Shown here in pieces: positions 6,001 to 9,000 of a stretch of 16,014 nucleotides of DNA. Each line of letters opens with the position of its first letter. Position 1 is the first letter of the stretch. Source of the stretch: a virus; UHGV virus genome UHGV-0355397; one strand, written 5' to 3'. The position numbers were made by a program.

Positions 6001-9000
6001 CCTTTTTTAGTATCCAACAGTCTGAACTGCCCCTGACCCAGATGAAGATGATTGAAGTTCCATGGTGTAATAACCATTAAGTGGCTCACCTTCCCAATCA
6101 AGGTTAATGCGTAATACATGGCCATATTTGGTTGCATTTGACTGGGCGATAAACCCTCCAGGCTTATCTATATCTCTCTGTGGCATCCCAGAATATACCT
6201 GATTTGCAGTATATGCCTTATCAACAGCAGGAGCGCCAATAGAGGCGGTAATTTTAGGCCACGTTCCGGAGCTGTGCAGAACATCTACAGCATACCCGGT
6301 AAGCCCGGTTGATGTTCTCCTGATCAAACATTCAATATACCCACTCCCATGAGATCCGCCAATCGACTTGATAATCAGTTTTGCAGTACCGCAATCCCAT
6401 GGATTTAAAGTCTGATCCCAACATTCAGCCTTTAGGCCGCTAGGCATAGGAAAATCCACGCTGGTTAACACTGCCTCACCTGGCCATACTCCTCCCACAA
6501 CTATTGGACTCGGTATCCTGACACTCAATGTTTCTAAATATCCTCTTCCCCATCCATTATTTGTTTGTCTGGCAAGGTGCTCGTAAATTGGCCTTATTGT
6601 CAAAGCCTGAATAAACGCTGGCTTGGATGCTGACGCATCTGCTGCGTTATAAATACTGATAGTTTTCCATCCCCTACCAATCAGCGTACCAATACGCTTT
6701 TGCAAGGCATCAGAGTGATTATTAGATCCACGATTTCGTGCTACAGTAACAGTGCTCTGAATTGCGTTATAGTTTGTTTGCACAAAACTATTTTGCTCGG
6801 CGAAAGCATAGTATGAAACCCCTATAGAGGGAGGGACCTCCTGTGGTTCAGAGAAGCAAAATGACAAATTAGAGTCATCCAGCCAGCTACCAACAACATC
6901 AACTTCTGCTGCCTCTGCATCAAGATAGAAACTGTATGACGTTCTAACATATTTTCCAGCATCAAACCCACCAATGATGCCTTGAAGCGTATATGTCTCG
7001 TAACCAAATCCCATTGTTACATTGTCAAAAGCATCAAAAAAACCAATCTGATCGCTCTGTTTGTATGGCCATACCGTTATTTCTGTAGATACTGGTCTAT
7101 AAAACGGAAGCATTCCTCCGGCCATCATCATTGAACCAATTGCTTCAGCTATTCGTTGATATCCGACAGAGTTGAAGTGAATTGGATCTGATGCGATAGA
7201 ACCATATGGGATATTGTATGGTATTTCATTTGCTTCGATATATGCACAACCATATACATGAGCTAAATTTCTGATTTCCTGCCCCCAAATTTGGAACTGT
7301 TGAATATTACCATGCTGCTCATTACCACCTGCAACTGGCTGAAGAATAATAACCCCCATCCCCCAATCAATGAATCTACGAATGAACTTCTCCATATACG
7401 TTAAATACACGTCTATCGTGGTTGATGTAGAGTCATTTATCGCATACATAATAATTGCAACATCACAATTAGGATTATCCTGCCATGCTAAATATTCAAA
7501 TCCTTGTTGTGCTGTCTGCCCGGATACTGCTCTAGTGATACTTGTTACATTCCCACCGGTACAGATAGAAAGGTATCTTGCGAGCCTTTCTGGATAGGTT
7601 ACATTAGCACGACGCGTTAACCCTGTTCCGTTTGCATCTGTTGAGTTAGGATCCCAACCAAAAGTCTCACTATCTCCCTGACAAAGGATCGATAATCCAG
7701 ACTTTTTACGAAGATTGAAGTGAGCCTTGGTAAGAGCCTGAATATTTCTGTTTCTATAATCAGCGCTATCTGATGCCAAAGTAGCGTTGCCAAGATTTGT
7801 AATGTGCTCTTGAACAGTCTTCCCATCATCAGTTCCGATTAATAAAGATCCTCCTGATCCAGACAGTTCCTGTCGCAGTTGATCTGGATCATATTTAATT
7901 ACATTAGGGTAATAAAATTGCAAACCACCAACAGCATCATACACCGCCATCGAATGGCCTTTCACAGTAACAAACTTGGCAATCTGTCCGTTATATACAG
8001 GGTAACCAGCAGCGTTAATGATGATTGGTTGCGAAACAGGAACGTGAGAACCATCCTCATTATCCACATAAACCTGAATCTGGTTTTCAGGATTTACAGG
8101 GTCAGTGTCAATTTTACCGATATAAATTTTGCCATTGGCAACCGCTTTAAAAGAACGCGCCATAGTGAAAAGTTGCGAAGGCATCGATACGATCACATTG
8201 GCTGTAATGTCTGTCATTTAATTTGCTCCAGATACAAGGAATCGCCGCAGAGTGGCTACGGTTGGTGTTTGTTGCATACCGAAACGGTACGATTGTTGAT
8301 TTGTACAGTAGGTTTTACGATGCCATTCCACCCAACTGGTGAGGCATCAAGGATGTACAGCAAATACGACGAGGCGCAGTTTCACTTGAGACTTCCGCAT
8401 GAACTTCACGCGAAAATTAAGCAGCGTGCGAAGATGAATAACAGGTCGCTGAACTCAGAGATAATTGCAGCGATTGAAGAATCATTGGCTAAACAAAGCT
8501 CTGCATCCGGTTACATTGACGATGCAGAGCGTATGGCAGAACAACAATCCGATATGGTAAAGAAAATTGTCTTTGATACGTTCAGAGATTTATATAAAAA
8601 AGACAGCAACTAACCATCCGTGTCTTTCCGTTACTTCTGGTTATCATCACTGTTCATCCAGTACATGATGCCTAGCCTTGATATGGTTTTCTTATCTGAT
8701 TCTGGAAGTGAGTTGTAAAACGAGCGCCAAGCAGAAGAGCGTCTTACAGTTGTATCAACGATGCTTTCTGGTGCTTGTTTTACTGCCAGCCTTGCTGCTT
8801 TCTGGAATTCTGGTGAGCTAATTAGCTTTTCTGCAGATTCAATTGATTCAGCGCCGCCCATCGCCCTGATTTTGCTGGCGACTTTTGCCCCAATTTCTGA
8901 CCCAGCAACAGCACCTACTGCACTGAACGGTCCTGACACAGTTGAACCAACCGCAGTGCCAATGCGTTGGGCATGGTTAGCAACAAATTCATTTGCCACA

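What the first reader, a model, noticed from the sequence alone, without database searches (positions are those of the whole stretch)
8218..8613. Orphan Mnt-like repressor placed divergently from the tailspike gene, with no arc or ant
In P22 the immI region is sieA-mnt/arc-ant, and Mnt represses Pant, which also reads into the tailspike gene. Here an Mnt homolog (8353-8613) is present but arc and ant are absent, and the mnt upstream region directly abuts the tailspike start at 8217. Mnt may have been repurposed to control tailspike transcription, or may be a remnant anti-superinfection repressor. A 17-bp dyad at 8275-8291 is a candidate operator.
Basis: partly seen in the sequence, partly recalled or inferred. 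Interest (0 to 1): 0.5.

Follow-up and report, generated by a model that had tools for sequence, protein, structure and literature searches.

The report
Mnt repressor module without antirepressor
This P22-like prophage keeps the Mnt repressor, its operator and its own promoter but has lost the antirepressor genes Mnt normally controls; this is a common, already described layout whose purpose is unknown, and the sequence gives no sign that Mnt controls the tailspike gene.

Summary
Window 8353-8613 encodes a full Mnt homologue (RHH domain plus Mnt tetramerisation domain; PDB 1MNT, E 5e-20). It lies divergent from a P22-type tailspike gene (start 8217) and 17 nt from the gene-16 homologue. Arc, sar, ant and sieA are absent. 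The dyad is real: core ATACCGAAACGGTAC, 8276-8290, centred 10 nt upstream of a Pmnt-like promoter, the same geometry as P22 Omnt/Pmnt.

The layout is not unusual. It occurs in phage Sf101, in IME10 and in 232 of 5426 complete E. coli genomes. A second specificity class (Gally, ST160) is also always orphan; mnt-only "ant morons" are published for ST64T, ST104 and phage L. All 161 + 71 IMG/VR loci of these two classes lack arc/ant.

The module is not decaying. dN/dS is 0.13-0.16. Operator half-sites and promoter hexamers are near-invariant while flanks and central bases vary.

The P22 Pant promoter is degenerate and no promoter-like site faces the tailspike. A 98% identical tailspike gene also exists without mnt. 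A repurposed tailspike regulator is therefore not supported.

Best reading: a selection-maintained, probably autoregulated Mnt-operator module with no known target, representing a new specificity class of a known kind. Modest interest.

The parts
8353..8613 (+). mnt homologue, 86 aa, recognition strand YDEAQFHLRLP ('class W')
   Evidence: dN/dS 0.16 among 83 close loci
8276..8290 (.).
   Evidence: Same distance to the -35 (10 nt) and to the mnt ATG (72-77 nt) as P22 Omnt. TACC/GGTA near-invariant in about 150 of 159 class-W loci while inner and flanking bases vary. Only one copy in the window and in the whole Sf101 genome.
8293..8321 (+). Pmnt-like promoter: -35 TTGTTG (8293-8298), 17-nt spacer, -10 TACGAT (8316-8321); inferred start near 8328
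   Evidence: Top + strand candidate (score 9.0). Hexamers at exactly the positions of P22 Pmnt relative to the operator centre. TTG and TACGAT invariant across 102 haplotypes. The score alone is not significant: 18% of shuffles reach it.
8341..8344 (+). GAGG ribosome-binding site for mnt
   Evidence: read from the sequence; conserved in the alignment
8218..8273 (-). tailspike 5' leader, the 'boundary sequence' shared with P22 gene 9 and CUS-3 bsq1; no promoter-like element
   Evidence: alignment A2; CUS-3 annotation; promoter scans
6007..8217 (-). tailspike gene (P22 head-binding domain + SGNH/GDSL esterase)
8631..11399 (-). gene-16-type ejection protein with N-terminal SLT lytic transglycosylase domain; last late-operon gene before mnt
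8597..8629 (-). weak hairpin followed by a U run on the late-operon strand, overlapping the 3' end of mnt (uncertain terminator)
   Evidence: z -0.43, not significant; the segment is retained in APC_JM3.2 although mnt is deleted there; epsilon34 annotates a terminator at the equivalent place

Best explanation
The locus is the minimal form of the P22-family 'ant moron': mnt, its operator and its own promoter, without arc, sar, ant, the ant terminator or sieA. The protein is a ribbon-helix-helix tetramer of a specificity class different from P22 Mnt. Its recognition strand is Y-x3-Q-F-H-L-R instead of R-x3-H-F-N-F-R. Its cognate site is the single dyad RTACC-N5-GGTAC centred at 8283.

That dyad abuts the -35 of the mnt promoter (TTGTTG-17-TACGAT), and the strong divergent promoter Pant that Mnt represses in P22 has been lost. 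The most likely present activity is therefore binding at its own promoter, i.e. autoregulation of mnt. Any effect on leftward transcription would be incidental at most.

Shown here: homology; absence of the partner genes; positional homology and conservation of operator and promoter; purifying selection; recurrence of the layout.

Inferred: that the protein binds this dyad; that the promoter is used; the sign of autoregulation.

Not explained: what selective benefit keeps a repressor whose only visible target is itself.
For: - Homology.
- No arc, ant or sar.
- Operator geometry: identical to P22 and Gally, centre 10 nt before the -35 and 72-77 nt before the ATG.
- Protein-operator co-variation: class W = RTACC-N5-GGTAC, class G = GACCAC-N-GTGGTC, class P = GGTCCAC-N-GTGGACC. 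All three share CC at -4/-3. In class G the central base takes all four values while the half-sites stay fixed.
- Per-column diversity: operator half-sites, the TTG of the -35 and the -10 have pi < 0.05. The left flank and third codon positions have pi >= 0.4.
- Selection on the gene: dN/dS is 0.16 for the window subtype (0.11 in the RHH domain) and 0.13 for class G. ORFs are intact in 158/161 and 69/71 loci.
- One pseudogenised copy (Citrobacter, L092) also carries an operator arm mutation.
- Recurrence: Sf101, IME10, VSe13, JEP4, Gally, ST160; 232 (class W) and 106 (class G) of 5426 complete E. coli genomes.
- All class-W and class-G IMG/VR loci lack arc/ant.
- The published Gally delta-mnt lysogen is viable (PMC9928086).
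Against: - The Pmnt-like score (9.0) is reached by 18% of shuffles.
- In the commonest subtype (Sf101) the spacer is only 15 nt.
- From memory of the P22 literature (Vershon et al. 1987), Mnt stimulates Pmnt only indirectly, by shutting Pant. Without Pant, an operator at -46 has no established effect on Pmnt, so autoregulation is an assumption.
- In the only RNA-seq data on an orphan mnt (Gally, class G), mnt is at background in LB and rises 40-fold in macrophages together with the tailspike. Simple constitutive autoregulation does not predict this.
- A repressor with only a self-target does not explain the strong purifying selection.
Confidence: 0.6

Rival explanations
1. Mnt has been repurposed to gate tailspike transcription. 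It binds the dyad about 65 bp upstream of the tailspike start. There it either represses a leftward promoter that replaces Pant, or acts as a roadblock to late-operon polymerase entering the tailspike gene.
For: - The operator lies between gene 16 and the tailspike, with the ant terminator gone.
- Villafane et al. 2008 already suggested that Mnt/Arc may modulate read-through into gene 9.
- In Gally, the tailspike is transcribed independently of the upstream late gene under macrophage conditions, so some promoter in the moron region can feed it.
- Operator conservation needs a reason beyond self-binding.
Against: - There is no promoter-like site on the tailspike strand: best score 5.8 versus a shuffle mean of 7.1. 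The P22 Pant hexamer positions are degenerate in the window, VSe13 and Gally.
- The module boundary falls exactly at the outer edge of the operator, so the operator travels with mnt, not with the tailspike.
- The same tailspike gene (98% identical) and related ones function without mnt (23CRST047, APC_JM3.2).
- In Gally, mnt and the tailspike rise together rather than inversely, and a strongly expressed moron gene upstream could explain the tailspike signal by read-through.
Confidence: 0.15
2. The orphan Mnt is a trans-acting guard. It is expressed from the prophage and represses the antirepressor promoter, or another operator-bearing promoter, of incoming or co-resident phages of the same operator class. 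This would protect the lysogen from Ant-driven induction.
For: - It would explain purifying selection on both protein and DNA-binding specificity without a cis target.
- P22 Mnt does act in trans on superinfecting P22 (established P22 genetics, from memory).
- Trans-acting antirepressor cross-talk among prophages is documented (Lemire et al. 2011, cited in PMC12922286).
Against: - Among 161 class-W and 71 class-G loci none has arc or ant.
- Sf101 has one operator in 38.7 kb.
- This role would not require conservation of the operator in the guard's own genome.
- Orphan mnt in Gally is not detectably expressed in LB-grown lysogens.
Confidence: 0.12
3. It is a functionless remnant of immI. It persists only by linkage to the recombination-prone boundary next to the conserved tailspike head-binding domain, and is simply too young to have decayed.
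For: - mnt is dispensable: the Gally delta-mnt lysogen is viable with no macrophage phenotype.
- mnt has been deleted in some relatives; APC_JM3.2 keeps only about 30 nt of it.
- The region has high gene flux (PMC2629481).
- The phage L authors raise this possibility (PMC8022706).
Against: - dN/dS is 0.11-0.16 with synonymous diversity 0.09-0.14, which is ample divergence for decay to show.
- 227 of 232 ORFs are intact.
- Operator half-sites and promoter hexamers are fixed while adjacent bases are saturated with variation.
- The layout is maintained in two specificity classes and several genera: Escherichia, Shigella, Salmonella, Serratia.
Confidence: 0.1

Closest known systems
Phage P22 immI region (mnt / Omnt / Pmnt-Pant / arc / sar / ant)
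   Same: - Same gene family for Mnt: RHH plus C-terminal tetramerisation helix.
- Same position between genes 16 and 9, and same orientation against the late operon.
- Same operator-to-promoter geometry, and the same gene-9 leader.
   Different: - No arc, sar, ant, ant terminator, orf59a or sieA.
- The Pant hexamers are degenerate.
- The recognition strand differs (R2Y, H6Q, N8H in P22 numbering).
- The operator half-site is RTACCNA instead of GGTCCAC.
mnt-only 'ant morons' of Salmonella phages ST64T, ST104, L and ST160, and E. coli LF82 prophage Gally (class G)
   Same: - Orphan mnt divergent from the tailspike at about 130-145 bp.
- Conserved dyad and Pmnt; no arc or ant.
- Already noted in the literature (PMC2629481, PMC8022706). 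Gally delta-mnt is viable (PMC9928086).
   Different: - Different specificity class: recognition strand RDDPQFNLRL, operator GACCAC-N-GTGGTC.
- These phages carry one or two extra moron genes between gene 16 and mnt, whereas in the window mnt directly abuts gene 16.
Shigella phage Sf101 and E. coli phage IME10
   Same: - 90.6% and 88% nucleotide identity across the region.
- Same Mnt class (93% amino-acid identity) and same operator core (TACCGAAATGGTA).
- Same gene order: gp16(SLT)-mnt-tailspike-oac.
   Different: - Different sequence between the operator and the tailspike start.
- A 15-nt rather than 17-nt promoter spacer.
- A different tailspike receptor domain.
- mnt is annotated as 'chromosome segregation ATPase' in Sf101 and is not annotated in IME10.
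Phage Sf6, E. coli 23CRST047 prophage and APC_JM3.2 (no ant moron)
   Same: Same late-operon backbone. The 23CRST047 prophage carries a 98% identical tailspike and O-acyltransferase.
   Different: No mnt at all, or only a 30-nt remnant. This shows that mnt is optional for this tailspike.

Membership tests
Mnt repressor family (P22 Mnt; Pfam PF03869 + PF11423) | N-terminal ribbon-helix-helix (Arc-like) DNA-binding domain | tested here: met
   Pfam Arc 6.4e-15 over residues 7-50; PDB 1MNT 5.4e-20 over residues 6-79
Mnt repressor family (P22 Mnt; Pfam PF03869 + PF11423) | C-terminal Mnt tetramerisation coiled coil | tested here: met
   PF11423 3.9e-13 over residues 57-82; PDB 1QEY 3.7e-8
Mnt repressor family (P22 Mnt; Pfam PF03869 + PF11423) | Encoded between the gene-16 and gene-9 homologues, opposite to the late operon | tested here: met
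Mnt repressor family (P22 Mnt; Pfam PF03869 + PF11423) | Single dyad operator immediately upstream of the -35 of its own promoter | tested here: met
   Positional homology with the annotated P22 Omnt/Pmnt and conservation across 159 loci. Binding itself was not tested.
Mnt repressor family (P22 Mnt; Pfam PF03869 + PF11423) | Specific binding of a tetramer to that operator | not testable with these tools
   needs EMSA or footprinting
Complete immI immunity region (mnt-arc-sar-ant) | Strong divergent promoter Pant overlapped by Omnt | tested here: not met
   The PWM scan recovers P22 Pant (17.4). The window minus strand scores at most 5.8, below the shuffle mean of 7.1.
Complete immI immunity region (mnt-arc-sar-ant) | arc gene | tested here: not met
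   No tblastn hit; only 135 bp lie between mnt and the tailspike
Complete immI immunity region (mnt-arc-sar-ant) | ant antirepressor gene | tested here: not met
   No tblastn hit in the 16-kb window. No gene annotated as ant or antirepressor in the closest complete genome, Sf101, which was not searched by tblastn; it carries only an Rha-family gene at the usual P22 rha position, with no operator nearby.
Complete immI immunity region (mnt-arc-sar-ant) | sar antisense RNA | tested here: not met
   Rfam RF00262 found in the P22 control (97.8 bits) and absent from the window
Complete immI immunity region (mnt-arc-sar-ant) | Mnt required for maintenance of lysogeny | not testable with these tools
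   For the class-G orphan in Gally a delta-mnt lysogen was built and is viable (PMC9928086). Not tested for this class.

The most novel reading that the evidence does not exclude
Orphan Mnt-operator modules would be kept for an antirepressor-independent job. There are two specificity classes; both always lack ant, and both are under purifying selection on protein, operator and promoter. One possibility is a stress-induced switch: the Gally mnt rises 40-fold in macrophages together with the tailspike. Another is exclusion of same-class superinfecting phages, with resident Mnt roadblocking late transcription into their tailspike gene so that they make tailless particles.
Probability: 0.15. Interest if true: 0.55.

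Novelty: new member of a known kind. Interest (0 to 1): 0.3.

Why it matters
Mnt/Arc is a textbook model of ribbon-helix-helix DNA recognition and of secondary phage immunity. This window belongs to a natural specificity class not described in anything I found. The recognition strand is YDEAQFHLRL and the operator is RTACC-N5-GGTAC. It offers a third natural protein-operator pair to set beside P22 and the L/Gally type.

The survey sharpens an open point already raised in the phage L and epsilon34 papers. Orphan mnt is not a decaying remnant but a conserved module present in roughly 6% of complete E. coli genomes (232 + 106 of 5426), and no cis target is visible. If a function is found it would probably concern prophage behaviour under stress or phage-phage competition.

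Tried and rejected
1. Dyad tested alone: not significant. It was accepted only on comparative evidence.
2. Search for a Pant-like promoter facing the tailspike, with the consensus scan and a PWM scan using P22 as positive control: none in the window. The Sf101 subtype has a weak ATGGCA-17-AATACT (score 6.9), which is still below the random mean.
3. Search for a second operator as a cis target elsewhere: none in the window, in the JEP4 and VSe13 loci that carry Rha/KilA/antirepressor-like genes, or in the whole Sf101 genome.
4. Search for same-class Mnt next to arc/ant: none among 232 loci. Larger gaps hold an HNH-AP2 homing endonuclease or an AT-rich insert, not arc/ant.
5. IMG/VR scans for both operator motifs away from mnt gave only chance hits in unrelated phages. 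One unrelated family has a duplicated promoter containing the 15-mer (L260 and others).
6. The GTDB scan with the Mnt alignment returned only 6 loci.
7. Kapi1 RNA-seq (mnt silent) proved to concern a different, complete Arc/Arc/ant locus, so it does not apply.
8. The terminator after gene 16 inside the 3' end of mnt is a weak hairpin and not significant.
9. A literature search for Mnt contact residues found nothing usable. Statements on Arg2/His6/Asn8/Arg10 rest on memory. The Phlomobacter locus (L095) shows that these four residues alone do not determine the half-site.

Full report
**What is in the window.** The window is the late-operon end of a P22-like (Lederbergvirus) temperate phage of the E. 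coli/Shigella type. On the minus strand run, in late-operon order:
- head closure and tail needle genes;
- a DUF2824 gene;
- gp7 (12741-13433);
- gp20 (11400-12731);
- a 922-aa gene-16-type ejection protein with an SLT lytic transglycosylase domain (8631-11399);
- the tailspike (6007-8217), made of a P22 head-binding domain plus an SGNH/GDSL esterase.

Further on lie an O-acyltransferase (4820-5983, +), an IS256-family element and an integrase.

Between gene 16 and the tailspike, on the opposite strand, lies the 86-aa ORF 8353-8613. It has both Mnt domains: Pfam Arc 6.4e-15 and Repressor_Mnt 3.9e-13. It matches PDB 1MNT at 5.4e-20 and the tetramerisation domain 1QEY at 3.7e-8. It is 49% identical to P22 Mnt. 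The mnt stop is 17 nt from the gene-16 stop, and the mnt start is 135 nt from the tailspike start. No Arc or Ant homologue is detectable in the 16 kb. No sar RNA is found, whereas Rfam finds sar in the P22 control.

**The dyad is the Mnt operator by position and conservation.** In the annotated P22 record the mnt operator AGGTCCAC-C-GTGGACCT is centred 10 nt upstream of the -35 of Pmnt (TTGAGA-17-TATCAT). It also overlaps the start of the strong divergent promoter Pant (TTGACA-17-TATATT).

The window has TACCG-AAA-CGGTA centred at 8283, 10 nt upstream of TTGTTG (8293-8298)-17-TACGAT (8316-8321). Phage Gally has AGACCAC-T-GTGGTCT 10 nt upstream of TTGAGG-17-TAAGAT. A PWM scan that recovers both P22 promoters at their annotated positions places the best plus-strand candidate of the window and of Gally exactly at the Pmnt-homologous position.

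By itself the dyad is short. It has 5-bp arms, is not reported by the repeat finder, and about 0.1 such repeats are expected by chance in 135 bp. The promoter score (9.0) is reached by 18% of shuffles. The case therefore rests on comparison.

**Comparative survey.** I collected about 250 IMG/VR loci with three Mnt queries and sorted them by recognition strand.

| Class | Recognition strand | Loci | Arrangement |
|---|---|---|---|
| W (window type) | YDEAQFHLRL | 161 | tailspike adjacent; never arc/ant |
| G (Gally, ST160) | RDDPQFNLRL | 71 | tailspike adjacent; never arc/ant |
| P (P22, epsilon34) | RDDPHFNFRM | 19 | arc (+ant) adjacent in 15; tailspike 1.8-2.4 kb upstream, no P22-type Arc hit, in 4 |

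Each class has its own dyad at the same distance (72-77 nt) from the mnt ATG:
- Class W: RTACC-N5-GGTAC. TACC/GGTA are unchanged in about 150 of 159 loci, while the inner positions vary.
- Class G: GACCAC-N-GTGGTC. The central base takes all four values and the left flank is variable.
- Class P: GGTCCAC-N-GTGGACC.

All three share CC at positions -4/-3. Per-column diversity shows that the half-sites, the TTG of the -35 and the whole -10 have pi < 0.05. The sequence left of the operator and the third codon positions reach pi >= 0.4. This is the signature of a protein-binding dyad and a used promoter. The protein and the site co-vary by class.

From memory of the Sauer-laboratory work, the contact residues of P22 Mnt are Arg2, His6, Asn8 and Arg10. 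Here they read Y, Q, H and R. A Phlomobacter locus shows that these four residues alone do not fix the half-site, so I claim only class-level co-variation.

**The layout is common and already described.** In classes W and G the tailspike start lies 110-149 bp upstream of mnt in 200 of the 228 loci where a tailspike start was found. The rest have either an HNH-AP2 homing endonuclease or an AT-rich insert in between, and never arc/ant.

The same arrangement is found in:
- published phages Sf101 (90.6% nucleotide identity; mnt mis-named 'chromosome segregation ATPase'), IME10, VSe13, JEP4, Gally and ST160;
- 232 (class W) and 106 (class G) of 5426 complete E. coli genomes.

Three papers already cover the layout:
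- Villafane et al. 2008 named the region the 'ant moron'. They listed ST64T, ST104 and Para1 as containing only mnt plus one ORF, and speculated that Mnt/Arc may affect read-through into the tailspike (PMC2629481).
- Misson et al. 2023 deleted the orphan mnt of Gally without loss of the lysogen and without a macrophage phenotype (PMC9928086).

**Remnant or functional?** Structurally the locus looks like immI with a clean loss from the outer edge of Omnt to the end of the ant terminator. The gene-9 leader shared with P22 and CUS-3 (their 'boundary sequence') runs up to the operator.

The module is not decaying:
- dN/dS is 0.16 for 83 window-subtype loci (0.11 in the RHH domain) at synonymous diversity 0.09, and 0.13 for class G.
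- 227 of 232 ORFs are intact.
- The one clear pseudogene (Citrobacter, L092) also has a mutated operator arm.

**Does it control the tailspike?** I found no sequence support.
- At the positions of the Pant hexamers the window has ATGGCA/CAAATC.
- The best minus-strand promoter-like score (5.8) is below the mean of shuffles (7.1).
- The homology breakpoint between subtypes falls at the outer edge of the operator, so the operator belongs to the mnt module.
- A 98% identical tailspike plus acyltransferase occurs in E. coli 23CRST047 directly after gene 16 with no mnt. APC_JM3.2 retains only the last ~30 nt of mnt.

One item leaves the door slightly open. In Gally RNA-seq the tailspike rises about 20-fold in macrophages while the upstream gene-16 homologue stays at background, and mnt rises 40-fold in parallel. 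Gally, however, has a highly expressed moron gene on the tailspike strand just upstream that could read through. The window has no such gene.

**Does it guard against foreign antirepressors?** No same-class ant-bearing phage turned up. Operator-motif scans of IMG/VR gave only mnt-adjacent sites and chance hits, although the scans were truncated at 120 rows. Sf101 has a single operator in its whole genome. I therefore keep this hypothesis at low probability.

**Verdict.** This is a genuine Mnt repressor with its operator and promoter, lacking its usual targets. It is a frequent, previously noted configuration of the P22-family ant moron, represented here by a specificity class (W) that is apparently undescribed. 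The most likely activity is binding at its own promoter (autoregulation). Why selection keeps it is unresolved.

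Noticed in passing
window 3315-4641: IS256/Mutator-family insertion sequence (transposase 3355-4563, minus strand; 36-nt imperfect terminal inverted repeats) inserted between the integrase (1862-3052) and the O-acyltransferase gene.
   Followed up: partly
window 4820-8217: The tailspike combines the P22 head-binding domain with an SGNH/GDSL esterase domain and sits next to a prophage O-acyltransferase. This is a possible deacetylase tailspike paired with an acetylating conversion gene. The same pair (98% nt) is in E. coli 23CRST047.
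   Followed up: partly
window 8353-8613; Sf101 KJ832078 14284-14577; RefSeq P22 NC_002371: Mnt homologues are named 'partition protein ATPase' or 'chromosome segregation ATPase' in PHROG 795 and several RefSeq/GenBank records. This is an annotation error that hides the gene.
   Followed up: yes
L018 5085-5624, L019 4614-5114, L084, L040 and others: In about 10% of class-W loci an HNH-AP2 homing endonuclease gene is inserted between mnt and the tailspike, with the first tailspike codons duplicated next to the operator side.
   Followed up: partly
L255 (CUS-3) 6600-6750, minus strand: The CUS-3 'bsq2 boundary sequence', annotated as non-coding, contains a 46-aa Arc-like ORF (MKVKTLRMPEKLEKILEEKAKEECRSFSAEVIKRVLDSLKREGVMV) followed by a Cys-rich small ORF. 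CUS-3 may therefore not lack an arc-type gene, as was reported.
   Followed up: no
L003 (APC_JM3.2) about 4560-4600; L092 (Citrobacter) 5001-5015: Two examples of mnt loss. APC_JM3.2 keeps only the last ~30 nt of mnt. A Citrobacter prophage has a stop after codon 4 together with an operator arm change, GGTA to AGTA.
   Followed up: partly
L260 7579-7593 and 8094-8108 (also L265, L287, L298, L325, L333): An unrelated phage family (GC 0.54) has a duplicated promoter-like segment ...TATATAC-ATACCGAAACGGTAC... 515 bp apart, each copy ahead of a small gene. It contains the same 15-mer as the window operator. This is probably coincidence, and no Mnt homologue lies nearby.
   Followed up: partly
window 8597-8629, minus strand: Weak hairpin plus U run just after gene 16, inside the 3' end of mnt. 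The segment is retained in APC_JM3.2 although mnt is gone, and epsilon34 annotates a terminator at the equivalent place. The fold energy is not significant.
   Followed up: partly
window 9700-10100 (gene-16 homologue, residues ~370-400): The ejection protein contains a direct peptide repeat, [22 protein letters not shown], and a duplicated DPNNPFAQ(L/I)E motif near the SLT domain.
   Followed up: no
L007 / LF82 prophage Gally (literature): Published RNA-seq shows the orphan class-G mnt at background in LB. In macrophages it is induced 40-fold together with the tailspike and neighbouring moron genes, while the late operon upstream stays silent (PMC9928086 S1 table).
   Followed up: partly
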